Shown piece after piece: positions 42,844 to 62,998 of a DNA stretch of 64,000 nt. The notes under the pieces were generated by a model. The model worked only from the letters and a program-made list of their open reading frames with translations. It was not told the origin of the DNA and made no database searches. This stretch comes from an uncultured Candidatus Saccharibacteria bacterium (lineage in GTDB: Bacteria > Patescibacteriota > Minisyncoccia > Minisyncoccales > UBA1441). A program made the position numbers and the translations under genes. The stretch covers positions 28,690 to 92,689 of the forward strand of contig CAZYFS010000001.1 of assembly GCA_964647465.1 (NCBI GenBank), read 5' to 3'. The stretch's first letter is position 1; every line of letters starts with the position of its first letter.

Positions 42844-42846
42844 AAT

Positions 42847-49304: not shown

Positions 49305-49435
49305 GCTTTCCCAAAACTCCCCACAACATCAACAAAAACGAAATTTTGTTAATAACCTGTGTATAAACTGAGCAATACAAACAGATTGACCAAAGGTGGC
49401 TTGGTTGTTATTCTAATAGAAAATCTTTTTGTCTT
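49305..49435. promoter_or_regulatory. dnaA upstream region / alternative oriC candidate at the strand-switch point
   Basis: DnaA-box variant TGTGTATAA at 49374-49382. It sits at the divergent junction between the minus-strand dnaA-dnaN and the plus-strand rnpA-yidC-jag. Confidence 0.35.
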
Positions 49436-50495: not shown

Positions 50496-50949
50496 AGGAA
50501 AAGAATTGAAATTAGTTCAAGAAATTGTCCAGAATTTTTTCCAACAAATGCTGCTTGAATGTTCGGCGAAGGTTAAAGGCTCTTCTCCGGGGACAATCAA
50601 TATCGAAATAGAAGTTGAGGAAGCACCAATATTAATTGGAATAAATGGAGAAACGCTTTTGAGCATTCAAAGTTTATTGAAGAAAATTCTAACAAAAAGA
50701 CTAGATCGGTTAATTTTTGTGGATTTTGATATTAACGGTTATAAAAAAACAAAATCAAAGCAACTTAAAGACTCGGCGGCAACTACTGCCGATCAGGTTG
50801 CTTTGACTGGAGTGAAAGAAGTTCTTCCTTCAATGTTTTCCTGGGAGAGGAGAATTGTTCATCTTGCTCTTATCGAGCGAAAAGATGTTTACACGGAAAG
50901 CGAAGGACAAGGAAAGGAGAGAAGAGTAATTATCAAACCGACCTCCTAA
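50488..50949 (+). CDS. jag: Jag/KhpB RNA-binding protein (KH + R3H)
   Basis: 153 aa. Conserved position after yidC and an R3H-like C-terminus (RRIVHLAL). Confidence 0.7.
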   Translation: MIKGKELKLVQEIVQNFFQQMLLECSAKVKGSSPGTINIEIEVEEAPILIGINGETLLSIQSLLKKILTKRLDRLIFVDFDINGYKKTKSKQLKDSAATTADQVALTGVKEVLPSMFSWERRIVHLALIERKDVYTESEGQGKERRVIIKPTS

Positions 50950-50952
50950 ACT

Positions 50953-52446
50953 CTATTGAGATATACCCTGTTCGACGACAGGGATAATAGAAATACGTCC
51001 TACTTTTGGGCGAAAAGCTTCAGTTCCTCGCAAGATGGAACTGCTTTTTAAATCAGTGGTGCTATCCCTAAAAACCTGACAATCAGCACCAGCGTTTTCC
51101 TCATTATTATAGAGAGTGTCGTTACTCAATACCACCCAATAGCTTCCATCGACTTTGACGGAATAAATTCGTTCAAGGCCATTCCACGGATAATTAATCT
51201 CTTCTTCCCAGAAGTATTCGTGTCCATTTTGAATTTCGGCAGCAGAAATAGTGTGGCAACCAGCTCCGCTAACGTCGGTTGCGAAATCAAGGTTTTGGCA
51301 AAAAGTAACCCCACCTTTTAATTCTTTGCTGAACTGACGGGCAAAAACTTCAACACTGCGAATGCGACTCGGTTCAATATCTAGATCATCTAAGGCAGTG
51401 CATTTAGGAAGGATAGTGTAATTAATGTTTTCTGCGAGATTGTGGGTGTCTACTTCCCTTCCTTCGTGAACAATACCACATTGGCCCTCTCCTCCAGTCT
51501 TGGTATGAAAGACTCCTCCCCAATAAATATCAGGAGAATAATAATCAAGAGTGTCATTGTCATGACTAGATATCCAACCCTCAGCATTATTATAAGTAAA
51601 GCGAAAGCGGAGGGATTCAGTGTGATCATTGAAAAGCCCTAAGTCGCTGCTTCCTATTCCAATTGGCAAAGGAAGATTATTTGGATAATCTTCAAAATTT
51701 ATTCGGCAACCTCCGCCAAATATTCCTGCTGATGGGAATAACACTAATCCGGAAATTAAATCGTCGAAGTAGATAGATTTGGGGTTAGAAAAGAGTTCTT
51801 GGCGAGTATTTCCGCTCGCATCAACGAAATTATTTTCTATCGTTGTAAACGCTCCTCCGGCATAGTTATATTCAGGGAAAAGAAAAATAGCGCTTAATTC
51901 TTCTTTGGGGCTTTCGATTTCAACGAAGTCTATCTCGAAATCGGCTGGTAAAATAATTTCGGGAGTACTCTCTCTGATACAAAAGAGATCTTGTTTGCCC
52001 GTGTCGACATCTGGCTTGCTATATAAGCAAATGCCGTGAGCGGGAATAAGAGGTTCGTCGGTTATTCCTACAAGGCTCGGATTAATCGTGTGAACGACTA
52101 GATAAGACCCTAAAACGATCACAATCCCGAAAAGCCCGCCGTAAATTTTAGTTCGAGCGTTTTTCATTTTTGTTACCGAGCCAGCGGAAATCAAGTAAGA
52201 AATTCCTCCGTAAACAAGAATAACAAAAGCAATTATTCCAACGCTCTCGATAGCGAAATAAAATAAATAACTAAGATAAGCAGAGCCGTCAGCATCTGTT
52301 GAGGGAGCAGCTTGGCCACCAGGGAGAGTCGGATAATGAATCTCCAGTTCTCGAGCGAAAAGAGAGTCTGTTTTAATAGTAAAAAAAGTTCCGATTAAAA
52401 CAAGGCAAATAAAAACGATAAAAAGATATTTTGAGAAAGTTTTCAT
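50953..52446 (-). CDS. secreted/anchored protein with VirB2/TrbC-pilin-like two-helix N-terminal module (paralog of 52468..54921)
   Basis: 497 aa. Signal/TM, then IIAFVILVYGGISYLISAGSVTKMKNARTKIYGGLFGIVIVLGSYLVVHTINPSLVG, alignable with the N-terminus of the next ORF. A large C-terminal domain of unknown function follows. Confidence 0.5.
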   Translation of the reverse strand: MKTFSKYLFIVFICLVLIGTFFTIKTDSLFARELEIHYPTLPGGQAAPSTDADGSAYLSYLFYFAIESVGIIAFVILVYGGISYLISAGSVTKMKNARTKIYGGLFGIVIVLGSYLVVHTINPSLVGITDEPLIPAHGICLYSKPDVDTGKQDLFCIRESTPEIILPADFEIDFVEIESPKEELSAIFLFPEYNYAGGAFTTIENNFVDASGNTRQELFSNPKSIYFDDLISGLVLFPSAGIFGGGCRINFEDYPNNLPLPIGIGSSDLGLFNDHTESLRFRFTYNNAEGWISSHDNDTLDYYSPDIYWGGVFHTKTGGEGQCGIVHEGREVDTHNLAENINYTILPKCTALDDLDIEPSRIRSVEVFARQFSKELKGGVTFCQNLDFATDVSGAGCHTISAAEIQNGHEYFWEEEINYPWNGLERIYSVKVDGSYWVVLSNDTLYNNEENAGADCQVFRDSTTDLKSSSILRGTEAFRPKVGRISIIPVVEQGISQ

Positions 52447-52467
52447 TTTTAATAAATTAATTTTGAT

Positions 52468-54921
52468 TTAATTTTCCTCTTCTCCTGCCTCTGCGCAGAA
52501 GTAATTCAGCATCAGGTCTTTAACGGCTTCTTGACAGATTAGACCGTCTTGATTTTCCGAGCAAGCTTTCTTTTCGTCTTCTGATAAAGCATTGTTCCCA
52601 TAAGGGGAATCGCTATTATAGGGATAGCAATTTTTGAAATCGGGGAAGATAGTAATTCGAGAAGTGGATAGCTTATCAAGCAAAATCGAACAACTAAATA
52701 AGTCTTTAGTGGTTGCGTTTTCTCCGAACCCAGTAATGCAAGTTTCTAGCTTTTGGCGAACGTTCATTAGTTGATTGATTAACTCTGTCCTGCTTGGATC
52801 ATCTTCTTTCAAATTCTTAGCTTCAATTAAATCAATTAGATGATCAGTTCTCTTTTTAACTGATCTCTCTTCTTCTTCGAACCACTGGTTAACCTCAGCG
52901 CTTCTCCTAAAAATTATGCTTAATGGACAAGGATGCATCTCCATACTGGGGGCATTACAAGTACTACACGGACAACCAGGACAAGCACCACAATCATTAC
53001 ATCGACAACCATGAGTAGTGTAACAACCCCCACGCTTGCAATGAGTGGCAGCAGAGTCTTGGGTTGTTATCGTTCCAGAATTACATAGACAGCGAGGGGG
53101 TAAATTATAGAGAGTGCATTGATTCCCGGGATCTTTCTTGTCATAAACCGGACAAGCTTCTTCGGGGACAGAGGTTTCGACTAGGGTAGTTAGTTCAGGA
53201 ATGAGTTTTTCAATATAGGCTTCGGCGTCATCAATTAACTCGCCGATTGAAGCAGTCCCAACAGGAAAACCATCTTCTATTTCGGTGTCAACAACGCCTT
53301 CTGTAATATTTTGGCGGGCAGTGATTTTCTCTGCTCGTTCAGAAAAAGGTTTCGGGCAATAAAAAGTAAAAGCGTCTTGATCAAAGACATAACATTCTCG
53401 TTCTTCTCCTTGATTTTCGTTAGTTTCTGGTTCAACTCGGCAAATGATCCCTTCTTCGTCAGATGGCATTCTTTCGTCTTTCCCTTGCTCGTTATTTATG
53501 AGGTATTTTGAACATTTATAACTCGTCTGGGTTTGATTGTTCCACCATTGTTCAACTTCAGTCCCCTTTTCCAGTTTATCAAGATCACAATCTCCACACG
53601 AGATTTTCTCCCCATCTTCTTCGCAATCTTTGCAGTTAAAATCTCGACAATACTTTGTGATATCAAGTTGTTGTTCTTGATCACATTCTTCTCCCCATTG
53701 ATGTGGTTGATCGTTAAGGCAGAAGACAAATTGTTTCGTCCTTTCTTTGGTAATTTCTTTGATGTCGTAAAAAGCGGAATGGCTTATTATTGTTTGATAT
53801 TGACAATCGCTTTTATAAAGGCCCTCTGCTTTTTCAAGATAAGATAAATCTACCTCGAGGCTGGATTTATAGGCTGGAAGAAAATGATAAGCGAGGTATC
53901 TTAATTTATTAACAGTAGTTAGTTGAGAATAATCTTCCGTAGAAACGTGGACTAATTCACTATCTTCTAAGCAGTTGTGTCCACCAATAACTTGCTTCAT
54001 GTTTAGAACCTTTTCTCGAATTTGATTCATTTCTCCGCGACCTGGACAAGGATCTCCCGAGCAAACAGCTCCACAGCGACAACTTCCTGCGGGGGGACAG
54101 GGACAGCCACCACAACTACAATACCCACAAGCACATTGCTGGGATAAGTCCGCTAATCTTTTTGATTTGTCGCGAAGTTCTTTTCCTTTAATTTGGATCG
54201 CTTCGCTAATTCTCTTGAGACAGTCTAGGCGATCATTTCGAGTGATTGGCTGTGCTTCATTGAGAAAGTCTCCTTCATCATCAAAGGCGTAACATAGATA
54301 GGCAATTTCAGCGTCTTCGGCTATAGCGTTGGGCCATTGTTCCGGAAAATCAACTTTCATTTTTTCGGCAATTCTTTCCAATTCCCCTAGGGGAATTGGT
54401 GGAGAGAGATTAAACTGGTCGTAACGGCAGTCAGCTAGTTCACCAGAATCATCAAAACAACTAATGTTCTTAGCTAAAATTCGTTCTTCTAACAACATTC
54501 CAAAGGGAATCTCTTGAAAACCAAAAACAGTTTCTTCGGAAGGAGGGGGAGGGCTTGGTTCTTCTATAGTTCCTGGAGGAAGTTCATTAAGGATCGGTTG
54601 GAGTAGCTGAGGGTTTATTGTTTGGAGAATGAGATAAGAAAAAACGACAATCATTAATCCAGCTATTCCACCAATTATTTGTTTTTGAGCAGAACTCTTT
54701 GCCGCAACAGAACTGGTCGAAAAAAGATATTTTATCCCACCATAAATCAAAACCGCGAGAGAGATAATCCCGATTGATCTGATGCTGTAATCAAAAACGG
54801 TTCCGATTAGATTAGAAAAATCTTCTTCGGCAGCAAAAACGGAGGAAGGAAAAGAAATCAAGCAAAAAATATTTATCAAAAAAAAGAAGGCAATGCTTTT
54901 TTTAATTATCTTGGTAGTCAT
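52468..54921 (-). CDS. large cysteine-rich secreted protein with VirB2/TrbC-pilin-like N-terminal module
   Basis: 817 aa. Signal peptide, then IISLAVLIYGGIKYLFSTSSVAAKSSAQKQIIGGIAGLMIVVFSYLILQTINPQLL, followed by a poly-Pro linker. Two dense Cys clusters: CACGYCSCGGCPCPPAGSCRCGAVCSGDPCPG and CKRGGCYTTHGCRCNDCGACPGCPCSTCN. Confidence 0.5.
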   Translation of the reverse strand: MTTKIIKKSIAFFFLINIFCLISFPSSVFAAEEDFSNLIGTVFDYSIRSIGIISLAVLIYGGIKYLFSTSSVAAKSSAQKQIIGGIAGLMIVVFSYLILQTINPQLLQPILNELPPGTIEEPSPPPPSEETVFGFQEIPFGMLLEERILAKNISCFDDSGELADCRYDQFNLSPPIPLGELERIAEKMKVDFPEQWPNAIAEDAEIAYLCYAFDDEGDFLNEAQPITRNDRLDCLKRISEAIQIKGKELRDKSKRLADLSQQCACGYCSCGGCPCPPAGSCRCGAVCSGDPCPGRGEMNQIREKVLNMKQVIGGHNCLEDSELVHVSTEDYSQLTTVNKLRYLAYHFLPAYKSSLEVDLSYLEKAEGLYKSDCQYQTIISHSAFYDIKEITKERTKQFVFCLNDQPHQWGEECDQEQQLDITKYCRDFNCKDCEEDGEKISCGDCDLDKLEKGTEVEQWWNNQTQTSYKCSKYLINNEQGKDERMPSDEEGIICRVEPETNENQGEERECYVFDQDAFTFYCPKPFSERAEKITARQNITEGVVDTEIEDGFPVGTASIGELIDDAEAYIEKLIPELTTLVETSVPEEACPVYDKKDPGNQCTLYNLPPRCLCNSGTITTQDSAATHCKRGGCYTTHGCRCNDCGACPGCPCSTCNAPSMEMHPCPLSIIFRRSAEVNQWFEEEERSVKKRTDHLIDLIEAKNLKEDDPSRTELINQLMNVRQKLETCITGFGENATTKDLFSCSILLDKLSTSRITIFPDFKNCYPYNSDSPYGNNALSEDEKKACSENQDGLICQEAVKDLMLNYFCAEAGEEEN

Positions 54922-54936
54922 TTTTTTAAAATTACC

Positions 54937-55284
54937 TTAATTATCATTCTTGATTGTTAAATAAACTGTCACGATCCAAGATGCGGCAATATCTCCGAAG
55001 ATGGGAATCGATTCGACCAAGGTAGGAAGAACGCTTCGTTTTAGTAATCTTTTTAATATTTTCGCTGATTTTCCTTTTATTTGACCAGAACGCATTAAAG
55101 TCCAAATACCAAAAATAATTAAGCCGGCGATATCAAGAATCACGGAAAGAACCAAGCCGATCGGCGCCAAGACAATAGTTATGGACAGGATAAGGCAGAT
55201 AACTCCTCCTAAATCAAGAAGTCCGGCAATAAAAAACATTAAAACAGCAATGGGGGATAAAAAACTAGGAGAATTATCTTCCAT
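54937..55284 (-). CDS. small 3-TM membrane protein (T4SS-locus component, possible pilin/VirB2-like)
   Basis: 115 aa, with two long and one short hydrophobic helices. It sits between the VirB4 and the Cys-rich protein genes. Confidence 0.4.
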   Translation of the reverse strand: MEDNSPSFLSPIAVLMFFIAGLLDLGGVICLILSITIVLAPIGLVLSVILDIAGLIIFGIWTLMRSGQIKGKSAKILKRLLKRSVLPTLVESIPIFGDIAASWIVTVYLTIKNDN

Positions 55285-55287
55285 AAT

Positions 55288-57081
55288 TTAAATTTCTTTT
55301 TTGATCATTCGTTTGGCTTCTTGAATCTTGGCAACCTCGGATGGATTAGTAGTGATAATTTGATCTTCGGCATAGGAAGCAACTACTTGCATTGCTACTC
55401 TTTTTGTCCCCGCAAAGAAAATTCCTTCTCCGACTTGAGTTGAGAGAAGAAGTTCTTTCTCTCTGTTTGTCAGCCCAAAAGTTTCTTGAATTAATCCAAT
55501 CGAAGCAGAGGACTGCTTCATTAGTAATTGAAGGGAAGAATTGTTAATAATTGGTTTCCCGTAACGTGAACCCATGAAGTCACTAACGTCCTGCGTAATG
55601 GTTGTTAGGCCGAGCCAATATTTTCGGGCTCTTTTAGCCATGCCGAAAAGAAAAGAGGCGCCATCTTCTGTTTTCATAATCCACCAAGCTTCGTCAATAA
55701 CAATAACCCTTTTCTTTAATGTTCCGCGAACGGAACTCCAAATGTGATGAAGGATAATATACATGGCAATTGGTCTCAAGTCATCGCTCATGTTTTTAAT
55801 GCCGAAAACGATTAATTTATTGTTCATATCGACATTAGTGGGTTGATTGAAAAAATTAGCATAACTCCCTCGAGTGTATTTACGTACTCTGCGCAACAAA
55901 GACTGAGCTCCATCCATGCTTTCAAGCACTTCTTCGAAATCTTGCATTAAAGGAGGTTTAAGTCGAGAGAAGTCTGTTCGTGAGGTAATATCGCAAGCAG
56001 CGTAAGTGGCCGTAAGGGCTTGATCAATAATTGCATCTTCTTCAGGGGTTAAGCCCCCCAACATTGTTCGAAAGAGTCCTACTAGATCAATGACGTTACG
56101 CCGAATAACATTGGCAGGATCTTCATCGGCCGTTGGTTGCGGCAAATCGAAGGCATTAAGGTGATTGGGAGAAGAAAGAGAAATATGGAAATAAGATCCA
56201 TCAACGGCGTCGGAAAGATATTTGTATTCATTTTCTGGGTCAATAACCATGACATCCACCCCTTCCATCAATTGGCGTAGAATTTCTAGCTTAGCGAAAT
56301 AACTTTTGCCTCCTCCACTTTTTCCAAAAATAACCTCATTGGCATTTTCTAAAGAGAAGCGGTCGAAAAGAATAAGCGAATTATTGTGCCTATTGATGCC
56401 AAAGAGAATTCCTTTATTGGAACTCAAGTCGAAAGAGATAAAAGGAAACATGCTCGAAAGAGGAGAGGTGTTCATTAAGGTGTGAACTTGTAATTGGTCG
56501 AGGCCATAAGGTGAACAACTAGTAAATCCTTCTATTTGCTGGAAAGAGGCTGGTTTAAGGTAAATCAGGCGCGACTCAAGAATAGCTCGGACATCTGTTT
56601 CTACATCCCTTAATTCATCAGTTGAAGCGCCATAAAGATTGAGATAAATTCCAACCCGAAACATTCTTTCTTGAGCATTTTTTAAGCTGGATCGAAGTGA
56701 TTCGACATCTTGGTAGGCTGTTTCTAATCCGGGATCACGGACAAAGCCCTTGCCTTCTCGGTCAATCATTTCAGCTTGAACTTCGGCAGATTTTTTTCTT
56801 AATTTCTTTAAAATAGAAGTGGTTTCAACTGGATGGAGAAAGAAGGTAAGATCAAGAGGCGAAGTTAGATTAATAATAGGCGATAGCCATCCAACTGATA
56901 AATAACGAGGATAAGAAAAAACAAAAAAAGTTTTTAATTGTTGTTTTTCAATTTCGACGTGATCTTTTTGTATCTTAACGGAAGAAGGAGCAATGAGGTC
57001 ACGGCTAGTTACTGCTTTGCTAACGGGAATCGTATTTCCTCCCAGGGAGGAAAATAGGTTTTTAAGTAAAGTTGATTTCAT
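55288..57081 (-). CDS. VirB4/TraC/TrbE-family T4SS ATPase, C-terminal (ATPase) portion
   Basis: Walker A FGKSGGGKSYFAK, Walker B VIVIDEAWW, and the TITQDVSDF motif. It overlaps the upstream ORF as ATGA. Confidence 0.85.
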   Translation of the reverse strand: MKSTLLKNLFSSLGGNTIPVSKAVTSRDLIAPSSVKIQKDHVEIEKQQLKTFFVFSYPRYLSVGWLSPIINLTSPLDLTFFLHPVETTSILKKLRKKSAEVQAEMIDREGKGFVRDPGLETAYQDVESLRSSLKNAQERMFRVGIYLNLYGASTDELRDVETDVRAILESRLIYLKPASFQQIEGFTSCSPYGLDQLQVHTLMNTSPLSSMFPFISFDLSSNKGILFGINRHNNSLILFDRFSLENANEVIFGKSGGGKSYFAKLEILRQLMEGVDVMVIDPENEYKYLSDAVDGSYFHISLSSPNHLNAFDLPQPTADEDPANVIRRNVIDLVGLFRTMLGGLTPEEDAIIDQALTATYAACDITSRTDFSRLKPPLMQDFEEVLESMDGAQSLLRRVRKYTRGSYANFFNQPTNVDMNNKLIVFGIKNMSDDLRPIAMYIILHHIWSSVRGTLKKRVIVIDEAWWIMKTEDGASFLFGMAKRARKYWLGLTTITQDVSDFMGSRYGKPIINNSSLQLLMKQSSASIGLIQETFGLTNREKELLLSTQVGEGIFFAGTKRVAMQVVASYAEDQIITTNPSEVAKIQEAKRMIKKEI

Positions 57082-57734
57082 TTAACGTCTTCTGTTAATT
57101 CTGGCATAATAGAGGGATAATATCCTACTTCGGCTGAATGTGGATGATACCAAGCCCAAAGCAACTCAATTAATTCGGGGGTTGTTAGCGGGGATGAGTT
57201 TAATCCACATCGCCTTAAGCCAATAGAAATAAACTCCATTCTTTGCCTTAACTGAGTCCTTGCTCTTTCGAAGGCTGATTCAGGAATTAATTCTTCTTGT
57301 TTTTTGGAAGCCAATAGTCTCTTGAATGAACTTGATCCCTCTACCTCAATTAGAGTGTAAGGAACAATCACTAAAAACCTTTTACTCATGATGGTTCCCC
57401 GATTAATAATTTTAGCAACAAAGCGTCTATAGTCAGCAGTTTGAATGCGCAATAGTTCGTTAGTTTGATTTTCTTCCAAGGTTTTCACTTTTTCGAGGTA
57501 GCCAGTTAAGTTCACTCGGCGAGATTGAACGGAAATCTGAGTATCGAAATCAAGAGAATTGATAAAATTTTGGAATTGAAAAATGATAGCCTCTTGTTCA
57601 TCGTTTGATTTAAGGGCAAAGTTCGAAGAAGAGAGCATGAGAATTCCTCGCAAAGCTTTGTTTTTTAAAATAATAACGCCATCTTTAATCTCCTGGAAAG
57701 GAAGGAATTCTTGTGTTGTTGCCTTATCGCCCAT
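57078..57734 (-). CDS. VirB4-family N-terminal domain (split from the ATPase portion)
   Basis: LPFQEIKDGVIILKNKALRGILMLSSSNFALKSNDEQEAIIFQFQNFINSL matches the conserved VirB4/TcpF/PrgJ N-terminal region. Confidence 0.7.
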   Translation of the reverse strand: MGDKATTQEFLPFQEIKDGVIILKNKALRGILMLSSSNFALKSNDEQEAIIFQFQNFINSLDFDTQISVQSRRVNLTGYLEKVKTLEENQTNELLRIQTADYRRFVAKIINRGTIMSKRFLVIVPYTLIEVEGSSSFKRLLASKKQEELIPESAFERARTQLRQRMEFISIGLRRCGLNSSPLTTPELIELLWAWYHPHSAEVGYYPSIMPELTEDVK

Positions 57735-58146
57735 GTTTTTTTAAATCTAATTTATTTTTGAGACGAGACAACTGACTCAACGGAGCAATAGCCAAGACAT
57801 CTCTTTGTTTTTTTCCTTGAATTTCGGGAGGTTCTTTTTTAGAAACTACGGGAATGGGTAGGGTCATCTCTTTCCTTTTCCATAAGTAAATTTTGGGTCC
57901 AAGAATATATTTAAAAATACTCTCTATAAAAACAGACAAAGGACGACTATTCGGACGGAGAAAGGCTAAGCTTGTAGTAATAATAGCGACAATGGCAATT
58001 GCTACCCAAAAAGCTGAACTAGGAAGAAAAAAGTAGAGAACAAAAAGCAACAAAGCCCCTCCTCCCAGGAAGAGTAATTGTTTAAACCGTAGGGGACCAA
58101 CAATCTTTGGTTCTCTCTCAATAAATTTTGGGACTAGGTATTGCAT
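57724..58146 (-). CDS. VirB3/PrgI/TcpE-like small 2-TM T4SS protein
   Basis: 140 aa. Short N-terminus, then two adjacent TM helices (LLFLGGGALLLFVLYFFL / FWVAIAIVAIITTSLAFL). It lies directly upstream of VirB4, as in Gram-positive-type T4SS operons. Confidence 0.55.
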   Translation of the reverse strand: MQYLVPKFIEREPKIVGPLRFKQLLFLGGGALLLFVLYFFLPSSAFWVAIAIVAIITTSLAFLRPNSRPLSVFIESIFKYILGPKIYLWKRKEMTLPIPVVSKKEPPEIQGKKQRDVLAIAPLSQLSRLKNKLDLKKHGR

Positions 58147-58490
58147 TAATTCAGGGGTTCTTGATACTTATCAACAACGGAAGGAGTTTTTTCTGAGGAA
58201 AGAGGCGCAAAAATAAAAGCATTAATTTCCTTTTTGAAACTTTCAGCTAGGGCAGGTTCGATGGTCAGCTCTTTTTGAAGGACAAGAGGCAAATCAGAAA
58301 GAGAAAAAAGATTTAATAATAAATTTCCAACTATCTCTGGTAACTTTTGTTCCTGGATAGAGTCTAGTTTGTAGCGAGAAGAAAGATCGCGAATAATCTT
58401 AGCTGTTTCTTCAGAGAAAATAGCTTTCTGTTGACCCAGAGGGATATTTTTGTAAAGCTGCCAAAATTCATCTTCGCTTATTTCTCGCAT
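58146..58490 (-). CDS. hypothetical cytoplasmic acidic protein (114 aa), first gene of the VirB3-VirB4 sub-operon
   Basis: No TM and no motif. Its stop overlaps the VirB3-like start. Confidence 0.35.
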   Translation of the reverse strand: MREISEDEFWQLYKNIPLGQQKAIFSEETAKIIRDLSSRYKLDSIQEQKLPEIVGNLLLNLFSLSDLPLVLQKELTIEPALAESFKKEINAFIFAPLSSEKTPSVVDKYQEPLN

Positions 58491-58567
58491 AACAATTTCT
58501 TTTAATTACCTCATTTTACTATTTTTTAACAGAGACTACAAGAAGCCAGAATAAAGAGGTTGCTTCC

Positions 58568-58598
58568 TTGACAAATTCTTTAACTGTATTATTATTTA
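58568..58598 (+). promoter_or_regulatory. putative sigma70-type promoter for the SPFH gene
   Basis: Perfect -35 TTGACA at 58568-58573. Weak -10 candidates 17-19 nt downstream (ATTATT at 58591-58596, TATTTA at 58593-58598). Strong RBS AAGAGGAGGAAGC-ATG. Confidence 0.3.
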
Positions 58599-58639
58599 AA
58601 TACGTTCTCTAAAACTAAAAACAAAAAAGAGGAGGAAGC

Positions 58640-59773
58640 ATGAAATCCAAAAGGTTAAGATCTCCAGGATGGTTGATTTTGTGGTTAGTCCCAACAGTTC
58701 TTTCGTGTTGGTTCTGGCTTTGGTGGGTCGGGGTTATTTATGCCCTGGTGATGATTTTCCCAGTTATTTTTTGGGGTCTTGCCGAGGACAACATTTGCTT
58801 CACCTTCATCTCCGAAGGAACAGCGAAGATTGTTACTCGTAGTGGAGCATTTCGCAAGGTTTTACTGCAATGGGAGGGCCGCGAATTAGACGGAAACGGC
58901 TATGTTGGGTTGATCGAAAAACCGGAGGAAGGCGCTTTATTGCAGAAGAAAAAATCTTTCAGTCAATGGCTTGAGCGACTGTTTGGAGGTCTTCGCTTTT
59001 ACGGTCTTTGGCCGTTGGCAGACATGCTCGTTTATGAGATGCAATGGTGGGGAGTAGACGGCAAAGGAGAGATAGATTTTCACGAGAAGGAACTTCTAGA
59101 TTTTGTCTTAGTTCGCCCCGACTTGTATTGGGGAGAAGTGACAGAAGCAGAAGACAAGAATTTACTCCCTCTGAGGGTGGAGTTTGTTATCACTCTTCAG
59201 ATTGTATGTCCTCGCAAGGCACTTCTTGATATCCAAAACTATCTTGAGGCGGTGATAGAAAGACTGAAGCCGGCAATCAGGGATAAGGTTACGAGCTCTT
59301 CTTACCAAGAGTTAATAGTGGATCCCACGGATGTTGCAAAGGCTATCTACGATGGAATTTCTGATCTTCGCGACGAGTTTATTCGGGATTATGGTGTTAA
59401 GTTAATCTCTTTTGACATCAAGAATATTGATCCTCCGAAAGGTTACATAGAGCAAACAATGGTTGCTTATCTGGCCGAACAAGAGGCGAAGAAGATAGAA
59501 AGGCTTGCCGAGGCGAGGGCTCTAGAAATTAACCTCATCAACAAGGCCGTTCAGGATTATGGAGATCTCGGTCTGGCCATCAGAACTCTCGAAGCTCTTG
59601 AGAAGTCTCCTTTGGCCGCCAGCATGATCGTCCAAAAAGTTCCTGGACTAGAGGCGGCCCTTAAATCCCTTGGAGGATCTAAGGGAGAAGTTTCTGAGAA
59701 GGAGCTAGGGACCCTTCTTAAAGAGCTAAAGATCGCTCTCCAAGAAATACAGGAGGGCAAAAAGGAGGAGTAG
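58640..59773 (+). CDS. SPFH/band-7 (stomatin/flotillin/HflK-like) membrane protein, GC-atypical
   Basis: N-terminal Trp-rich TM. EGTAKIVTRSGAF, ...DFVLVRPD..., DYGVKLISFDIKNIDPPKGYIEQTMVAYLAEQEAKKIERLAEA, and an Ala/Glu coiled coil. Visibly higher GC and different codon choice (GAG, CTG, GCC, CGC) than the flanks. Confidence 0.75.
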   Translation: MKSKRLRSPGWLILWLVPTVLSCWFWLWWVGVIYALVMIFPVIFWGLAEDNICFTFISEGTAKIVTRSGAFRKVLLQWEGRELDGNGYVGLIEKPEEGALLQKKKSFSQWLERLFGGLRFYGLWPLADMLVYEMQWWGVDGKGEIDFHEKELLDFVLVRPDLYWGEVTEAEDKNLLPLRVEFVITLQIVCPRKALLDIQNYLEAVIERLKPAIRDKVTSSSYQELIVDPTDVAKAIYDGISDLRDEFIRDYGVKLISFDIKNIDPPKGYIEQTMVAYLAEQEAKKIERLAEARALEINLINKAVQDYGDLGLAIRTLEALEKSPLAASMIVQKVPGLEAALKSLGGSKGEVSEKELGTLLKELKIALQEIQEGKKEE

Positions 59774-59784
59774 AAAACAACGAA

Positions 59785-59822
59785 GGGAGGAACAAGTACA
59801 TTTTGTTCCTCCCGGATTTTTT
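59785..59822. terminator. bidirectional intrinsic terminator (SPFH / VirB6-like convergent ends)
   Basis: GGGAGGAACAA-gtacatt-TTGTTCCTCCC (11-bp perfect stem), then GGATTTTTT. Confidence 0.7.
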
Positions 59823-59843
59823 ATTTATAGGGGATATTTAAGC

Positions 59844-62114
59844 TTATAATCTATTTCTTCCCCTCGTTCCGGATCTTATTTTCTTCCTTTGCCGATTCAA
59901 CTGCTTTTTTAGTTTTGCTTGCCCGCGAACTTTTTCTCTTTTTTGTTTTGCAAGAGAAGGACCAGATTGAATAAAACCACCTTTTTCGCGAGCTCGATCT
60001 TGCATTCCTTTAGATAAAACCAACCCATTAACAATTTTTCCCACTTTTTTAAGAGATTCATCGAGAGATTTTTGAATCTCTACGGCGCTTTTGCCATCGC
60101 GAAGACCAATTCCTGATCTTGCAGCAGCCGTACTTTGTCGATAAAAGGCTAAAGATGAGTTTCTTGGCCGACCGGTATTTTTATTAATATCGGTGTAGAA
60201 ATCAGTTGTTTTTGGCGGGGCTGCTTGAATGGCATTACTAAATTTGTGACCCATTGTTTCAGCTGCTTTCGCCCATTGGTTTCCTCCCCAGAATTCATGG
60301 ATGGCGCTTTGGACACTAGAGGAGGCGATGGAAGAGCTTAATCTTTTGATTGCATCTGTATCGCCAGCCTTATCAACAATTCGATCAGTGTAACTATTGT
60401 AACCCTTTCCTGCTCGATCTTCTGCTTGTTGTTCCTTGGTGTAAGCTCCTGTTTCCTGAGCTATTCGCCCGAACATTTCTCCTAATTCTCCAGCGTAAAG
60501 TTCCTCTAGGGCCTTAGCTGTTTCTTTGGCGGTTTTATTGCCTTTAGCTTGTATGGCGGTTCGATATAATTTTTCTACGCCGACGTCATCAAGAGAAGAG
60601 TTTTTCTTAAATTGCTCAAAGTTTCCATCTTTAATTTCAGAGGCAACGATAGCTAATTGAGCCATTGGATTTATTGCCGAATTAAATCGAGAAACATTTT
60701 CATTGGTTGTTTTCCCTTTAGCTTTTTCCATGGCTACCTGAAGCGCTTTTCCGCGAGAAGTTGTTGTCATGGAGCTAACAGTTCTTCCGGTTAATCGTTT
60801 GGCATAACCACCGAAACCCTTTCCTTCTTCCATAGACATTTTTTCAATTGCTTCTTCTCCTCTTGCAACCCCAGATCTAGTGAAGACTCCTCGGGCTCCC
60901 CCCATAATAGCGTGACCAGTGCCAGCCCCAAATCCTGCATCGCCGGATTTTCTTAATTGTCGTCCTTCTGCGGCTCCTTGTTTAATCCCGACAATTGCTC
61001 CGGTGGTTCGTCGTACTGTTCCTACTCCTCCAGCCTTAAGTCCTTTCTTTAGCACTCCCTTCCCTCTATTGCCGATTGCCTTTGCTCTGCTTACAACAAG
61101 ATTGCTTCCGGTAGCGCTTACTTGCAGGGTAAAAAGAAAGCCAGCTATTAGGAAAATCATAGGAACGCTATATTGAGCAACGGTTGTCATAAAATTTGAT
61201 CCCGCTGTATTGTTTAGAACCATATTCGTTGTGGGTCGACTTACAGTTTCCTCAATTAATTTGTCGCTTAAGTAAATAACAAGAGCGGCAGGAATGCCGA
61301 TAATACTCCAGTTAATAAACTCCTTCCACCATCTTTGAAAATGTTTTTGACCAAAAGGAAAGATCCAAAGGAGGAAAGCAAGGGGCGAAATAATAATAAG
61401 CAACCAAAGAATGACATAACGCATCGCAAAGAGAAAAGCGAAAATCAAATAAATAAACATTGCGACAAAATTAAAAACGACAAGCAATAACCCTTTTGCT
61501 AAAGCAATCGCCGGATCAGCAGTAAGTCCTCCGCCTGTCAAAGTTGCAAACTGGCTTGCTATTTCTCCCCCCATTCCCGAGAGGAGAGTCGTGGTTTCTG
61601 GTAAAAAGATCCTGGTAACAACATTTGCTCCATCAATAATAATTCCACAAAGAGCAGGAGTGAAATTTATTAAAAGAGCGACAACAATAATTCGAAAAAG
61701 GGCCTGTTTTGTTTTAAAATTAGCTAGACTTAAAGCGGTTGCTAATCCTATATAGACTAAGCCAAGTATAATAAAGGACATCGAAAAATTCCTCATCATC
61801 GTCCATCCTTCTTGGACAATGAAGTTGTCAGGTCCGGTAAAACTTACTCCAATAAAAGAATCACTGATAACCCATTGAAAGATTTGTTGGGCGAATTCCA
61901 TAAAAGGAGCAGTTAGAGCAGTTAGGACAGCAAAAACAACCATTACTATTGCGTTGGAGAAAATATTCATAGCTCCACTTACTATCCCGAAAAGATCCCA
62001 AGAAAAGTTTGCTTCAGCCGAGAGAGGAAGAATTAAAATAAACAAAGAGAAGACAAAAACAAGACTAGTGAATAGTTTTCTTTTTTTGAAAAAACCTAGT
62101 AAAGAAAAATTCAT
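59844..62114 (-). CDS. VirB6/TrbL-like polytopic membrane protein with ~350-aa Gly/Ala/Lys-rich C-terminal extension
   Basis: 756 aa. Signal/TM plus about 6-7 TM helices with conserved Trp (FQRWWKEFINW). The C-terminal half is hydrophilic with G/A/K/R-rich low complexity and a highly basic tail KQKREKVRGQAKLKKQLNRQRKKIRSGTRGRNRL. Confidence 0.55.
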   Translation of the reverse strand: MNFSLLGFFKKRKLFTSLVFVFSLFILILPLSAEANFSWDLFGIVSGAMNIFSNAIVMVVFAVLTALTAPFMEFAQQIFQWVISDSFIGVSFTGPDNFIVQEGWTMMRNFSMSFIILGLVYIGLATALSLANFKTKQALFRIIVVALLINFTPALCGIIIDGANVVTRIFLPETTTLLSGMGGEIASQFATLTGGGLTADPAIALAKGLLLVVFNFVAMFIYLIFAFLFAMRYVILWLLIIISPLAFLLWIFPFGQKHFQRWWKEFINWSIIGIPAALVIYLSDKLIEETVSRPTTNMVLNNTAGSNFMTTVAQYSVPMIFLIAGFLFTLQVSATGSNLVVSRAKAIGNRGKGVLKKGLKAGGVGTVRRTTGAIVGIKQGAAEGRQLRKSGDAGFGAGTGHAIMGGARGVFTRSGVARGEEAIEKMSMEEGKGFGGYAKRLTGRTVSSMTTTSRGKALQVAMEKAKGKTTNENVSRFNSAINPMAQLAIVASEIKDGNFEQFKKNSSLDDVGVEKLYRTAIQAKGNKTAKETAKALEELYAGELGEMFGRIAQETGAYTKEQQAEDRAGKGYNSYTDRIVDKAGDTDAIKRLSSSIASSSVQSAIHEFWGGNQWAKAAETMGHKFSNAIQAAPPKTTDFYTDINKNTGRPRNSSLAFYRQSTAAARSGIGLRDGKSAVEIQKSLDESLKKVGKIVNGLVLSKGMQDRAREKGGFIQSGPSLAKQKREKVRGQAKLKKQLNRQRKKIRSGTRGRNRL

Positions 62115-62125: not shown

Positions 62126-62998
62126 TTAATTATCCTTATTATACTTTATTTTATCTTTCTTGGAAAACACCTGGAAGAGCTTTCTCCATTCTTCTTGAGA
62201 AAGAGTTCCTGCTCGTCGCTGAGGGTTAATTTGACAATTCGTTAAATCCTCTATAATTTCTTCTTTTTTCTTTGGCCAAGCTGCTAATAAATTATTAATC
62301 AAGGTCTTTCGAGAAGAGGCAAATCCGATATTAACAAGGCCAATAAAATCATCTGGAACTTTTCTTTGTTCGCCAAAAATTATTTTTACAATAACCGAAT
62401 CAATGCGTGGTTTTGGCCAAAAAGAAGCTGCGGGCAAAGCTCCAACTAGATGAAATTGAGCAGTTTGTTGGCTTAGAATTGATAGTCGATTGGCTCGCGG
62501 GGGTTGGGCGGTTAATTTTTCGCCAAATTCTTTTTGAAGAACGAGGACAGCAGAAAGTGGCCGAGGGTCTAAAAATAATATTCGTTCTATTAAATAGGGA
62601 CTAAGAGAGTAAGGAGGATTTCCAATGATTTTATAAGTGGCCCAGTCTCTTTTTTCTGCCAATAGATTAAAAACGTCGTCAAAAATAACCAAAATAGATG
62701 GATAAGCGAGAGAGGCCTTTTTTAAGACGGGAATCAGGCGACAGTCTTTTTCAACAGCGCTTACTTGTTTTACGTGAGGGGCAATTACACGAGTGATTGT
62801 TCCTAATCCAGCTCCTATTTCAAAAACTCTATCTGTGAGTTTTAGTTCTGCGATTTGCCGGATTTTTTCTACAGCATTTTGGTCAATTAAAAAATGTTGC
62901 CCTAGTTTTTTCTTAGGGGTAATACCATATTCTTTAATGGTTTTTTTTGTCCAAGCTTCTAAGCCTTGATTTGTTTTATAGGAGAATTGACTTGACAT
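62126..62998 (-). CDS. rsmA: 16S rRNA (adenine1518/1519-N6)-dimethyltransferase RsmA/KsgA
   Basis: LGQHFLIDQNAVEKI, EIGAGLGTIT (motif I), NPPY (motif IV). It has a ~40-aa C-terminal extension. Confidence 0.9.
   Translation of the reverse strand: MSSQFSYKTNQGLEAWTKKTIKEYGITPKKKLGQHFLIDQNAVEKIRQIAELKLTDRVFEIGAGLGTITRVIAPHVKQVSAVEKDCRLIPVLKKASLAYPSILVIFDDVFNLLAEKRDWATYKIIGNPPYSLSPYLIERILFLDPRPLSAVLVLQKEFGEKLTAQPPRANRLSILSQQTAQFHLVGALPAASFWPKPRIDSVIVKIIFGEQRKVPDDFIGLVNIGFASSRKTLINNLLAAWPKKKEEIIEDLTNCQINPQRRAGTLSQEEWRKLFQVFSKKDKIKYNKDN

What the first reader, a model, noticed from the sequence alone, without database searches (positions are those of the whole stretch)
50953..62114. Origin-adjacent T4SS-like locus: VirB6-like, VirB3-like, split VirB4 and two pilin-anchored giant proteins, with no relaxase or coupling protein
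Eight consecutive minus-strand genes form a compact type IV secretion-related module. They are a VirB6/TrbL-like membrane protein, a small acidic protein, a VirB3/PrgI-like 2-TM protein, the VirB4 N- and C-terminal ORFs, a small 3-TM protein, and two large extracytoplasmic proteins. All three ATPase and channel hallmarks are readable in the translations. The module lacks a relaxase, a VirD4 coupling ATPase, an integrase and flanking tRNA or repeats, so it does not look like an integrative conjugative element (ICE) or plasmid transfer region. It abuts the replication-origin genes (jag ends at 50949). It is the only multigene block transcribed against the local replication direction. It also carries a GC-atypical inserted gene, the SPFH/band-7 gene on the opposite strand at 58640-59773. 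Together this suggests a resident, non-conjugative T4SS-derived apparatus for adhesion, DNA uptake or host contact, whose cargo and surface proteins (the next finding) are uncharacterised.
Basis: partly seen in the sequence, partly recalled or inferred. Interest (0 to 1): 0.85.

Follow-up and report, generated by a model that had tools for sequence, protein, structure and literature searches.

The report
Patescibacteria chromosomal type IV secretion locus
This is the origin-adjacent, relaxase-free type IV secretion gene cluster that ultra-small Patescibacteria (CPR) bacteria carry on their chromosome; the system was described in 2023 and 2025, so this is a clear new example of a known kind, with a few accessory proteins that remain undescribed.

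Summary
Eight minus-strand genes at 50953-62114 and one plus-strand SPFH gene form a type IV secretion system (T4SS) module:
- extended VirB6/TrbL;
- an orphan 114-aa protein;
- PrgI/VirB3;
- a TrsD-like VirB4 N-domain protein;
- the VirB4 ATPase;
- an orphan 3-TM protein;
- two large proteins whose N-termini are VirB2-like T4SS-pilin modules.

The window holds no relaxase, coupling protein, integrase, nearby tRNA or flanking repeats.

The genome is a Parcubacteria-type Patescibacteria MAG. The order ksgA-virB6-(SPFH)-p114-prgI-trsD-virB4-pilin genes-jag-yidC-rnpA-dnaA-dnaN recurs in dozens of related species, so the locus is vertically inherited and not a mobile element.

This system is already published: Wang 2023 (Cell) showed it is essential in a Saccharibacterium, and Quinonero-Coronel 2025 surveyed about 3,000 genomes. 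Those papers cover the TrsD/VirB4 pair, the VirB2-like pilins, the missing relaxase and the dnaA/ksgA neighbourhood.

Two sub-claims fail:
- It is not the only multigene block transcribed head-on to replication.
- The GC-rich SPFH gene is not unique to this genome; 11 relatives carry it at the same site.

Possibly new details:
- The pilin module carries hypervariable, Cys-rich or enzymatic extracellular domains.
- Two core accessory families (p114, p115) are conserved and unannotated.

Function and direction of transport remain unknown.

The parts
59844..62114 (-). Extended VirB6/TrbL-like polytopic membrane protein (756 aa). The N-terminal ~360 aa form the helical membrane domain. The C-terminal ~400 aa are basic, hydrophilic and poorly conserved.
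   Evidence: Precomputed PF19590 TrbL_3. Orthologue profile hits TrwI/VirB6 (7o3v_F) at E 8.1e-6. 16 of 39 orthologues hit PF04610 TrbL. AF2 model pLDDT 75.6; the top five Foldseek PDB hits are all TrwI/VirB6, probability 0.99-1.00, target-normalised TM 0.41-0.58. Hydrophobic segments. Present in 43 of 47 related loci that have enough upstream sequence.
59785..59813 (.). Bidirectional hairpin terminator shared by the convergent VirB6-like and SPFH genes.
   Evidence: 12-bp stem with 6 GC pairs and T-runs on both strands.
58640..59773 (+). SPFH/stomatin-like membrane protein (377 aa) on the opposite strand. An accessory gene specific to one sub-lineage.
   Evidence: Pfam Band_7 48.2 bits against a cutoff of 23.6. 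PH stomatin 3bk6 5e-8. GC 0.459 against 0.363 for housekeeping genes. Same position and strand in 11 related loci besides the window's own contig, always GC-richer than its locus.
58568..58595 (+). Sigma-70-like promoter of the SPFH gene, inside the divergent intergenic region 58491-58639.
   Evidence: TTGACA-16-TATTAT, 11 of 12 matches, followed by a GAGGAGG ribosome-binding site before the ATG at 58640. This is a consensus match only.
58146..58490 (-). p114: small acidic, probably cytoplasmic protein of an unannotated family that always sits just upstream of prgI. It has a ~95-aa helical domain, a variable linker and a conserved C-terminal D-x-Y-R-E-P-I-E motif.
   Evidence: Family found in 53 related loci at this position. 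Alignment A5. No Pfam or PDB relatives.
57724..58146 (-). PrgI/VirB3-like two-TM protein (140 aa).
   Evidence: PF12666 PrgI 2.2e-8, 34.9 bits against a cutoff of 27; TcpE 2e-4. Conserved next to the TrsD-like gene in nearly all related loci.
57078..57734 (-). TrsD-like protein (218 aa), homologous to the first ~120-180 residues of full-length VirB4. Its stop overlaps the virB4 start by 4 nt.
   Evidence: NF045971 positions 2-117 (1.5e-5), NF045975 (4.5e-8), NF041427 TrsD (1.1e-3). Precomputed PF26593 TraC-like. A separate ORF of ~195-285 aa (median ~215) in every related locus that covers the position.
55288..57081 (-). VirB4 ATPase (597 aa) with intact Walker A and Walker B motifs.
   Evidence: NF045971 363 bits (cutoff 325), model positions 183-733. 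P-loop_TraG 3.9e-33. PDB 4AG5 1.6e-38.
54937..55284 (-). p115: small three-TM protein of an unannotated family, with invariant D24, W61 and P94.
   Evidence: Found in 22 related loci. It stays next to the pilin-module genes where those are relocated and inverted (L019, L020). Alignment A7. No Pfam family.
52468..54921 (-). p817: signal peptide plus VirB2-like T4SS-pilin module (aa ~30-108), then a ~700-aa acidic extracellular region with 48 Cys. The last ~120 aa form a module that recurs at the C-terminus of other proteins.
   Evidence: PF18895 18.4 bits, below threshold. Family-level support. Topology and Cys count. About 45 invariant Cys in 15 homologues. Only 15 clusters among 5.8e9 proteins and 54 representatives among 1.84e9 match the C-terminal region. 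AF2 pLDDT 58.6, with no informative fold match.
50953..52446 (-). p497: signal peptide plus VirB2-like T4SS-pilin module (aa ~50-127), then a ~370-aa extracellular domain with no known relatives.
   Evidence: PF18895 14.7 bits in the full-length scan and 17.8 for the N-terminal 135-aa fragment, both below threshold. Paralogous to p817 only over the pilin module (7e-16). The C-domain is found in only 4 database clusters at 76-97% identity.
62126..62998 (-). ksgA/rsmA 16S rRNA dimethyltransferase. Same strand as the VirB6-like gene, 11 nt upstream of it; a conserved neighbour.
   Evidence: PF00398 RrnaAD. Synteny in most related loci. KsgA is listed among the common virB4 neighbours in PMC12102498.
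63031..64000 (+). LysM + Peptidase_M23 cell-wall hydrolase, cut by the end of the window. Candidate functional stand-in for VirB1.
   Evidence: Precomputed Pfam hits on the identical contig. Coordinates are mapped by offset from that contig, not read directly in the window. Found in the upstream flank in 11 related loci, next to ksgA where ksgA was also detected. Its role is inferred.

Best explanation
[quoted passage not shown] It derives from the conjugation machinery of monoderm bacteria (the MPF_FATA class) but no longer has the DNA-processing parts.

Shown here:
- A VirB4 ATPase with intact nucleotide-binding motifs.
- A separately encoded TrsD-like VirB4 N-domain.
- A PrgI/VirB3 anchor.
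- An extended VirB6 channel protein.
- Two secreted membrane proteins built on a VirB2-like pilin module.
- No relaxase, coupling ATPase or integrase in 64 kb.
- A fixed position between ksgA and jag-yidC-rnpA-dnaA-dnaN across many species.

Inferred mechanism: VirB4, together with the TrsD-like protein, docks on PrgI and VirB6 (and probably p114) to form a cytoplasmic-membrane translocon. As in other T4SSs, VirB4 would pull VirB2-type modules out of the membrane and assemble or display them on the cell surface. The large Cys-rich (disulfide-stabilised), fast-evolving C-terminal domains of p817 and p497 would then face outward and make contact with the host cell. The neighbouring LysM/M23 hydrolase would open the wall, and the SPFH protein may scaffold the membrane complex.

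The apparatus most likely serves the epibiotic lifestyle, through host attachment and movement of macromolecules across the contact. Whether it exports effectors or imports host material is not known.
For: Component identities.

Taxon and source: identical locus on metagenome contigs. All 80 of the best related loci come from MAGs of Parcubacteria, Patescibacteria, Giovannoni-, Niyogi-, Azam- and Nealsonbacteria and the like, or from loosely labelled CPR bins.

Synteny: the order ksgA-virB6-(SPFH)-p114-prgI-trsD-virB4-(p115)-pilin genes-jag-yidC-rnpA-dnaA-dnaN recurs in whole or in large part in dozens of species at 52-91% VirB4 identity. 36 of 47 loci with at least 8 kb of downstream sequence reach the origin gene cluster.

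No mobile-element marks.

Operon-like packing: overlaps or gaps of at most 21 nt from p114 through p497.

Literature:
- PMC12102498 reports the Patescibacteria VirB4 clade nested in MPF_FATA, TrsD next to virB4, PrgI, VirB6, VirB2-like pilins, rarity of relaxases, and dnaA/dnaN/rnpA/ksgA as frequent neighbours in Paceibacteria.
- PMC10633639 shows that the T4SS and its pilin array are essential for epibiotic growth of Southlakia epibionticum and lack a recognisable coupling protein and relaxase.
- PMC12857230 section 22 summarises this work.

Outward-facing variable domains: relatives carry the same pilin module fused to Peptidase_M23, to an SLT lytic transglycosylase, or to a GDSL lipase together with SLT.
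Against: - No experiment exists for any Parcubacteria T4SS; essentiality is shown only in a different class (Saccharimonadia).
- The window copies of the pilin module score below Pfam's threshold.
- At 497 and 817 aa these proteins are too large to be ordinary polymerising pilins, and the window has no short pilin gene, so a pilus may not form.
- No VirB8-like component was found.
- A coupling protein or relaxase could lie elsewhere in the genome; only 64 kb were examined, on a 124-kb contig.
- I did not build a VirB4 tree, so membership of the published monophyletic clade rests on nearest neighbours.
- The roles of p114, p115, SPFH and the M23 peptidase are inferred from linkage only.
Confidence: 0.88

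Rival explanations
1. Importer: the machine works in reverse, like the Helicobacter ComB or archaeal Ced systems. It would take up host DNA, RNA or nucleotides for a cell that cannot make them.
For: - There is no relaxase or coupling protein in the window, as in ComB-type uptake systems.
- VirB4 gives weak hits to the Ced import ATPases CedB (5e-13) and CedD (2e-6), far below their cutoffs.
- PMC11665869 proposes nucleotide acquisition as a candidate role.
- A 2026 preprint (10.64898/2026.06.21.733656) reports tubular structures, possibly T4SS pili, at the interface of a cultivated parasite that feeds on host RNA.
Against: - The Ced matches are generic P-loop similarity; the best matches by far are conjugative VirB4 families.
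- No nucleic-acid-binding or nuclease component is linked to the locus.
- The uptake model in the preprint is stated to be unresolved.
Confidence: 0.3
2. Exporter or surface-display system: the T4SS secretes or displays proteins that attack or hold the host envelope, and the pilin-module proteins are themselves the cargo.
For: - The pilin module is fused to hypervariable extracellular domains, and in relatives to SLT, Peptidase_M23 and GDSL lipase domains.
- p817 and p497 are restricted to a handful of close relatives, as expected for host-specific surface proteins.
- Wang 2023 suggests protein export (PMC10633639).
Against: - These proteins have Sec-type signal peptides and could reach the surface without the T4SS.
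- The enzyme fusions could act on the bacterium's own wall, as VirB1 does.
- No effector or secretion signal is defined.
Confidence: 0.4
3. Functional conjugation system whose relaxase and coupling protein are encoded elsewhere in the genome.
For: - PMC12102498 finds VirD4-like genes in most Patescibacteria genomes, usually far from virB4, and relaxases in about 3% of genomes.
- Only 64 kb of this genome were examined.
Against: - Relaxases are rare in the phylum.
- The distal T4CP homologue is dispensable in S. epibionticum while the T4SS is essential (PMC12102498).
- The locus is fixed at one chromosomal site across species.
- It has no oriT-like or att-like repeats.
Confidence: 0.07
4. Decaying remnant of an integrated conjugative element with no current function.
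For: - The VirB4 coding sequence is in two ORFs.
- There is no relaxase, T4CP or integrase.
- An opposite-strand, GC-atypical gene lies inside the cluster.
Against: - All ORFs are intact and tightly packed, and the ATPase motifs are preserved.
- The two-ORF VirB4 arrangement and the gene order are conserved in dozens of species at 52-75% protein identity, which implies purifying selection.
- The homologous system is essential in Saccharibacteria (PMC10633639).
Confidence: 0.02

Closest known systems
Patescibacteria-clade T4SS (Quinonero-Coronel et al. 2025, PMC12102498; essential locus SEML1_0006-0019 of Southlakia epibionticum, Wang et al. 2023, PMC10633639)
   Same: - VirB4 with an adjacent TrsD-like protein, PrgI/VirB3, VirB6 and VirB2-like pilin genes.
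- No nearby relaxase or coupling protein.
- Chromosomal position next to dnaA/dnaN/rnpA/ksgA.
- Monoderm host cell.
   Different: - This locus is from a Parcubacteria-type genome, not from Saccharimonadia.
- It has two very large pilin-module proteins rather than an array of pilin genes (six in S. epibionticum, 2-11 in the 2025 survey); the survey treats VirB2 as a small protein, but I did not compare sizes.
- It carries an SPFH gene inside the cluster.
- It includes two conserved families, p114 and p115. I did not identify either with any T4SS component named in those papers, but I could not test them against the CONJScan profiles (for example PrgF).
MPF_FATA conjugative systems of Gram-positive bacteria (pGO1/pSK41 TrsD-TrsE; C. 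difficile CTn2 CD1110; pCF10 PrgI/PrgJ/PrgH) and Mycoplasma ICEs (Mbov_0395/0397)
   Same: - The best VirB4 model is the CD1110 family, scoring above its cutoff; the Mycoplasma ICE VirB4 model scores 267 bits.
- The split TrsD/TrsE-type arrangement.
- A PrgI-type VirB3.
- Weak similarity to the Mycoplasma pilin-like protein.
   Different: - No relaxase, T4CP, VirB8-like protein or PrgB-type adhesin.
- Not on a mobile element.
- It has VirB2-like modules, which Gram-positive conjugation systems generally lack according to PMC12102498 and PMC12857230.
R388/pKM101/Agrobacterium VirB-type (MPF_T) T4SS of Gram-negative bacteria
   Same: - The VirB6 fold matches TrwI.
- The VirB4 ATPase domain matches TrwK.
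- 11 of 68 pilin-module proteins of this family also hit Pfam TrbC/VirB2.
   Different: - No outer-membrane core (VirB7/9/10), VirB5, VirB8 or VirB11.
- The pilin modules carry 370-700-aa C-terminal domains.
T4SS-derived DNA uptake systems (Helicobacter ComB; archaeal Ced)
   Same: A T4SS core that works without relaxase or coupling protein and is resident in the chromosome.
   Different: - Sequence similarity to CedB and CedD is only marginal.
- No ComEC or ComB-specific partners are linked to the locus.
- Competence is dispensable while the T4SS is essential in S. epibionticum (PMC12857230).

Membership tests
Patescibacteria-type T4SS (PMC12102498) | VirB4 ATPase of the monoderm MPF_FATA lineage | tested here: met
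   NF045971 CD1110-family VirB4 363 bits, above the 325 cutoff. Next best are NF045975 (Mycoplasma ICE VirB4) and TraC. 4AG5 1.6e-38.
Patescibacteria-type T4SS (PMC12102498) | VirB4 falls inside the monophyletic Patescibacteria clade of the VirB4 tree | tested here: inconclusive
   No tree was built. As a proxy, the 80 best related genomic loci (52-91% identity) are CPR/Patescibacteria MAGs, some with loose record titles.
Patescibacteria-type T4SS (PMC12102498) | TrsD-like VirB4 N-domain protein encoded next to virB4 | tested here: met
   The 218-aa ORF matches VirB4 model positions 2-117 and TrsD. PF26593 TraC-like. Conserved as a separate ORF in every related locus covering the position.
Patescibacteria-type T4SS (PMC12102498) | VirB3/PrgI and VirB6 homologues near virB4 | tested here: met
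   PrgI scores above the Pfam cutoff. VirB6 is supported by profile, orthologue Pfam hits and fold.
Patescibacteria-type T4SS (PMC12102498) | VirB2-like pilin gene(s) near virB4 | tested here: met
   Two ORFs carry the module. 67 of 68 aligned sequences of the family (window fragments included) hit PF18895 and 11 hit TrbC/VirB2. The window copies are individually below threshold.
Patescibacteria-type T4SS (PMC12102498) | No relaxase close to virB4; chromosomal site near dnaA/dnaN/rnpA/ksgA | tested here: met
   Precomputed Pfam annotations of the called genes across nearly all of the window. Gene order. Synteny statistics.
Patescibacteria-type T4SS (PMC12102498) | Required for epibiotic growth | not testable with these tools
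   Shown only for S. epibionticum by Tn-seq (PMC10633639).
Integrative conjugative element / plasmid transfer region | Relaxase and type IV coupling protein | tested here: not met
   Neither is among the called genes of the window. The rest of the genome was not examined.
Integrative conjugative element / plasmid transfer region | Integrase, flanking att repeats or tRNA target, patchy distribution | tested here: not met
   No integrase. The only tRNA is 23 kb away. Repeats are chance-level only. The chromosomal position is fixed in dozens of species.
VirB6/TrbL family (for the 756-aa protein) | Polytopic helical membrane domain with sequence or fold similarity to VirB6 | tested here: met
   6-7 hydrophobic segments. 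TrwI profile hit at 8e-6. The top five PDB fold hits are TrwI. The window sequence alone gave no hit in my Pfam scan, although the precomputed annotation lists TrbL_3.
VirB2/TrbC-type polymerising pilin (for p497 and p817) | Signal peptide followed by two hydrophobic helices | tested here: met
   Hydropathy segments at 1-31, 57-92 and 99-126 (p497), and at 4-32, 49-68 and 80-107 (p817).
VirB2/TrbC-type polymerising pilin (for p497 and p817) | Small mature protein (roughly 70-130 aa) able to pack into a helical filament | tested here: not met
   The proteins are 497 and 817 aa. Homologues of the module range from 109 to 1101 aa. These are therefore pilin-module fusion proteins and should not be filed as ordinary pilins.
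SPFH/stomatin family (for the 377-aa protein) | Band_7 domain above the Pfam threshold, plus an N-terminal membrane anchor | tested here: met
   48.2 bits against a cutoff of 23.6. Stomatin 3bk6 5e-8. N-terminal hydrophobic segments.

The most novel reading that the evidence does not exclude
In Parcubacteria the VirB2-like pilin module has become a general carrier. Through it, the essential T4SS would present a fast-evolving set of extracellular domains at the host interface: giant disulfide-rich domains such as those of p817 and p497, and in relatives SLT, M23 and GDSL hydrolases. On this reading the two large proteins are the host-specificity and host-breaching determinants of the system. 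The unannotated p114 (with its D-x-Y-R-E motif) and p115 would be lineage-specific core subunits that replace the missing VirB8 and coupling functions.
Probability: 0.3. Interest if true: 0.6.

Novelty: new member of a known kind. Interest (0 to 1): 0.3.

Why it matters
The Patescibacteria T4SS is the only T4SS known to be essential to the bacterium that carries it, and its substrate and direction of transport are open questions. This locus adds nothing categorically new to that picture. It is a clean, complete Parcubacteria example with a conserved gene order.

The comparison across about 80 species does point to concrete candidates for follow-up:
- pilin-module proteins carrying hypervariable Cys-rich or cell-envelope-degrading domains;
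- two conserved orphan subunits (p114, p115);
- a linked SPFH scaffold;
- a linked LysM/M23 hydrolase.

These are testable handles on how ultra-small epibionts contact and exploit their hosts.

Tried and rejected
- **Direct family scans of the 756-aa protein.** Pfam and NCBIfam found nothing. This was resolved through an orthologue profile, orthologue Pfam hits and a fold search.
- **Structure prediction with the locus-derived alignment.** I redid it with database homologues.
- **Profile of the pilin module against PDB sequences.** No significant hit.
- **Profiles of p114 and p115 against Pfam (both) and PDB (p114 only).** Nothing credible.
- **Pseudogene or frameshift explanation for the split VirB4.** Rejected because the two-ORF arrangement is universal in relatives.
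- **Recent horizontal insertion of the SPFH gene.** Rejected as the sole explanation, because the gene is syntenic in 11 related loci and GC-rich relative to its locus in all of them.
- **ICE or plasmid origin.** Rejected.
- **rpmH between dnaA and rnpA.** Looked for and not found.
- **One contig look-up** failed because of a start-codon mismatch.
- **Not attempted:** a VirB4 phylogeny, and a scan of the remaining ~60 kb of the source contig for T4CP or relaxase.

Full report
**What is there**

From p114 down to p497 the genes overlap or are separated by at most 21 nt:
- p114/prgI overlap by 1 nt;
- prgI/trsD-like overlap by 11 nt;
- trsD-like/virB4 overlap by 4 nt;
- the remaining gaps are 3, 15 and 21 nt.

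ksgA lies 11 nt upstream of the VirB6-like gene on the same strand. The stop of the 497-aa gene is 3 nt from the stop of jag, which converges on it.

**Component identities**

- The 597-aa protein is a VirB4 ATPase. NCBIfam NF045971 (CD1110-family VirB4) scores 363 bits against a cutoff of 325 and covers model positions 183-733. The next best models are the Mycoplasma ICE VirB4 and TraC. Pfam P-loop_TraG scores 3.9e-33. The closest solved structure is the Thermoanaerobacter VirB4 C-domain 4AG5 (1.6e-38), then R388 TrwK. Walker A and Walker B motifs are intact in the translation.
- The 218-aa ORF upstream matches positions 2-117 of the same VirB4 model and weakly matches TrsD. It carries a precomputed PF26593 TraC-like hit.
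- The 140-aa protein is PrgI/VirB3, above the Pfam cutoff.
- The 756-aa protein gave no hit in my own scans, but four lines of evidence identify it:
  - the precomputed annotation on the identical contig lists TrbL_3;
  - a profile of 39 orthologous N-terminal domains hits R388 TrwI/VirB6 at 8.1e-6;
  - 16 of these orthologues hit Pfam TrbL individually;
  - an AlphaFold model built on 31 database homologues (pLDDT 75.6) has TrwI/VirB6 chains as its five best matches in the whole PDB, with probability 0.99-1.00 and target-normalised TM 0.41-0.58.
  
  It is an 'extended' VirB6. The C-terminal ~400 residues are basic, hydrophilic and poorly conserved.

**The two large proteins**

Both begin with a signal peptide and two hydrophobic helices. 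This ~130-aa module is the only part they share with each other and with homologues in related loci. The window copies fall short of the Pfam T4SS_pilin threshold (14.7-18.4 bits against 26.6). In an alignment of 68 such modules (the two window fragments and 66 homologues), 67 hit PF18895 at E<=0.01 (best 1.4e-12) and 11 also hit TrbC/VirB2.

Homologues carrying the module range from 109 to 1101 aa. The C-terminal parts are hypervariable:
- The ~700-aa C-region of p817 (48 Cys, about 45 of them invariant among its 15 relatives) is found in only 15 clusters of a 5.8-billion-protein collection.
- The same region matches only 54 of 1.84 billion representatives in an exhaustive HMMER search. Most of those matches are confined to a ~120-aa module at the extreme C-terminus.
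- The C-domain of p497 has only four database relatives.
- The p817 model was poor (pLDDT 58.6) and matched only generic helical bundles.

In relatives, the same pilin module at the same locus is fused to recognisable cell-envelope enzymes:
- Peptidase_M23 in L026;
- SLT lytic transglycosylase in L053;
- a GDSL lipase together with SLT in L077 and L079.

Most family members are Cys-rich. The window has no short, plain pilin gene. These proteins contain a VirB2-like module but fail the 'small polymerising pilin' criterion, so I do not file them as ordinary pilins.

**Context and origin of the sequence**

The identical locus occurs on a 124-kb ENA metagenome contig and on a JGI contig. Precomputed Pfam annotations cover the called genes of nearly all of the window. 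They show only housekeeping genes (aminoacyl-tRNA synthetases, ribosomal proteins, Mur ligase, a PBP, RuvC and so on) or genes without any hit. There is no relaxase, coupling ATPase or integrase.

The only tRNA is at 28066, and there are no meaningful repeats around the locus.

The GC-skew minimum at about 47-48 kb and a perfect DnaA box at 47822 in the dnaN-dnaA spacer place the origin 2-3 kb from the T4SS.

**Comparative evidence**

A scan of one genome per species returned 80 related loci, all from CPR/Patescibacteria MAGs. Most are Parcubacteria-type; several records carry loose taxonomic titles.

Searching their ORFs with the window proteins shows the order ksgA - virB6 - (SPFH, opposite strand) - p114 - prgI - trsD-like - virB4 - (p115) - one to four pilin-module genes - jag - yidC - rnpA - dnaA - dnaN. 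It recurs, in whole or in large part, in dozens of species at 52-91% VirB4 identity. In detail:
- 36 of 47 loci with at least 8 kb of downstream sequence reach the jag-yidC-rnpA-dnaA cluster.
- 43 of 47 with enough upstream sequence have the VirB6-like gene.
- The TrsD-like gene is a separate ORF (~195-285 aa, median ~215) in every locus that covers it. The 'split VirB4' is therefore the ancestral TrsD/TrsE-like arrangement, not a disruption.

The locus is vertically inherited and under purifying selection. It is not a mobile element.

**Accessory genes**

- **p114** belongs to a family found in 53 loci, always directly upstream of prgI. It has a ~95-aa helical domain, a variable linker and a conserved C-terminal D-x-Y-R-E-P-I-E motif. 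It has no Pfam or PDB relatives.
- **p115** (three TM helices; invariant D24, W61, P94) occurs in 22 loci. It stays next to the pilin-module genes where these have been relocated and inverted (L019, L020), which links it to them rather than to VirB4.
- **The SPFH gene** has its own strong sigma-70-like promoter and ribosome-binding site, and shares a bidirectional terminator with the VirB6-like gene. It is GC-rich: 0.459 against 0.363 +/- 0.02. It also sits at the same site and in the same orientation in 11 related loci within the closer sub-clade, and is GC-richer than its locus in all of them. More distant relatives lack it, and there the virB6 stop lies within about 30 nt of p114. It is therefore an old, lineage-specific accessory gene whose composition is intrinsic to it.
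- **A LysM + Peptidase_M23 hydrolase** lies upstream of ksgA on the opposite strand in the window's contig and recurs in the upstream flank of 11 related loci. It is a candidate VirB1 substitute, as PMC12102498 suggests for Paceibacteria.

**Comparison with what is known**

The system is published.
- Wang et al. 2023 (PMC10633639) found an essential T4SS (SEML1_0006-0019, numbered just after the start of the genome) in Southlakia epibionticum. It has essential predicted pilins and no recognisable coupling protein or relaxase.
- Quinonero-Coronel et al. 2025 (PMC12102498) surveyed 3,035 Patescibacteria genomes and reported:
  - a monophyletic VirB4 clade nested in MPF_FATA;
  - TrsD as the most abundant partner next to virB4;
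  - PrgI/VirB3, VirB6 and VirB2-like pilins (PF18895, often in arrays);
  - relaxases in about 3% of genomes;
  - dnaA, dnaN, rnpA, ksgA and rpmH as frequent virB4 neighbours in Paceibacteria and Microgenomatia, with a gene-dosage rationale.
- The 2025 FEMS review (PMC12857230) and the PNAS perspective (PMC11665869) state that the role is unknown, with effector delivery or nucleotide uptake as suggestions.
- A 2026 preprint (10.64898/2026.06.21.733656) reports possible T4SS pili at a parasite-host interface in a cultivated relative that feeds on host RNA.

Every headline element of the finding is already described for this class of system.

**Mechanism**

Shown here: the parts list, their conservation, and the lack of DNA-processing genes nearby.

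Inferred from established T4SS biology:
- VirB4 hexamers, completed by the TrsD-like N-domain protein, dock on PrgI/VirB3 and VirB6 in the single membrane.
- VirB4 extracts VirB2-type modules from the membrane for assembly or display.
- The C-termini of these modules face outward, so the large Cys-rich or enzymatic domains are extracellular.

I consider surface display or host contact, with or without export, somewhat more likely (about 0.4) than import of host nucleic acid (about 0.3). The two readings are not mutually exclusive. Conjugation using distal genes (about 0.07) and a decaying ICE remnant (about 0.02) are unlikely.

- The T4SS block is not the only multigene block that runs head-on to replication. 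The five-gene plus-strand block 38861-43332 and infC-rpmI-rplT at 20580-21674 lie left of the origin and are also head-on.
- The SPFH gene is not a unique insertion.
- Absence of a coupling protein cannot be established from 64 kb.

**Verdict**

The residual interest lies in the pilin-module fusion proteins and the orphan conserved subunits.

Noticed in passing
L026:12193-13119; L077:18924-20861; L079:13447-15354; L053:13667-15784: At the same locus in related species, the T4SS-pilin module is fused to cell-envelope enzymes: Peptidase_M23 (7e-24) in L026, SLT in L053, and a GDSL lipase together with SLT in L077 and L079. This suggests the module serves as an anchor or carrier for hydrolases.
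   Followed up: partly
window 58146-58490 (p114) and 53 related loci: An unannotated family that always lies immediately upstream of prgI. It has a conserved C-terminal D-x-Y-R-E-P-I-E motif after a variable linker and has no Pfam or PDB relatives.
   Followed up: partly
window 54937-55284 (p115); L019:4554-4916; L020:3887-4231: A small three-TM protein family that stays next to the pilin-module genes where those are relocated and inverted, which implies a functional link to them rather than to VirB4.
   Followed up: partly
window 58640-59773: The SPFH/stomatin-like gene inside the T4SS cluster is GC-rich (0.459 against 0.363). It is GC-richer than its surroundings in all 11 relatives that carry it. 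The closest SPFH homologue (L015, 1.7e-74) is not from the closest VirB4 relative, which hints at exchange or uneven evolutionary rates.
   Followed up: partly
window 52468-52830 (last ~120 aa of p817): The extreme C-terminal ~120-aa module of p817 recurs at the C-terminus of unrelated-length proteins (96-1231 aa) in the exhaustive search. It looks like a separable, conserved end domain (also L019 and L020).
   Followed up: no
window 63031-64000 (+), continuing beyond the window: A LysM + Peptidase_M23 hydrolase lies upstream of ksgA on the opposite strand and recurs in the upstream flank of 11 related loci. On the source contig a lysine/glutamate-rich, low-complexity tail-anchored protein lies beyond it.
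   Followed up: partly
window 38861-42127 (+): An unannotated 404-aa ORF, a T2SSE-family ATPase (40083-41399) and a lamin-tail-domain protein (41396-42127) form a plus-strand block. This may be a fragment of a type IV pilus or type II secretion-like system.
   Followed up: no
window 14682-18209 (-): A class I aminoacyl-tRNA synthetase of ~1170 aa with a His_Phos_1 (histidine phosphatase) hit lying between two halves of its catalytic domain, according to the precomputed Pfam annotation.
   Followed up: no
window 49278-49435: No rpmH (L34) ORF lies between dnaA and rnpA, although rpmH is a usual neighbour there. The dnaA start is called differently on the source contig (450 aa against 459 aa).
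   Followed up: partly
window 50949-50953: The convergent jag and p497 genes end 3 nt apart with no terminator-like hairpin between them. Read-through antisense transcription seems unavoidable.
   Followed up: no
window 59844-62114 and 57078-57734: My own Pfam scan missed the TrbL_3 (PF19590) and TraC-like (PF26593) hits that the precomputed annotation records for the identical proteins. This is probably a difference in library version or filtering.
   Followed up: no
L003-L082 record titles: Many related MAG records are titled 'uncultured Candidatus Saccharibacteria', 'Pacearchaeota', 'Bdellovibrionales', 'Mollicutes' or 'Humimicrobiaceae' while carrying a Parcubacteria-type locus. Record-level taxonomy is unreliable for these bins.
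   Followed up: no
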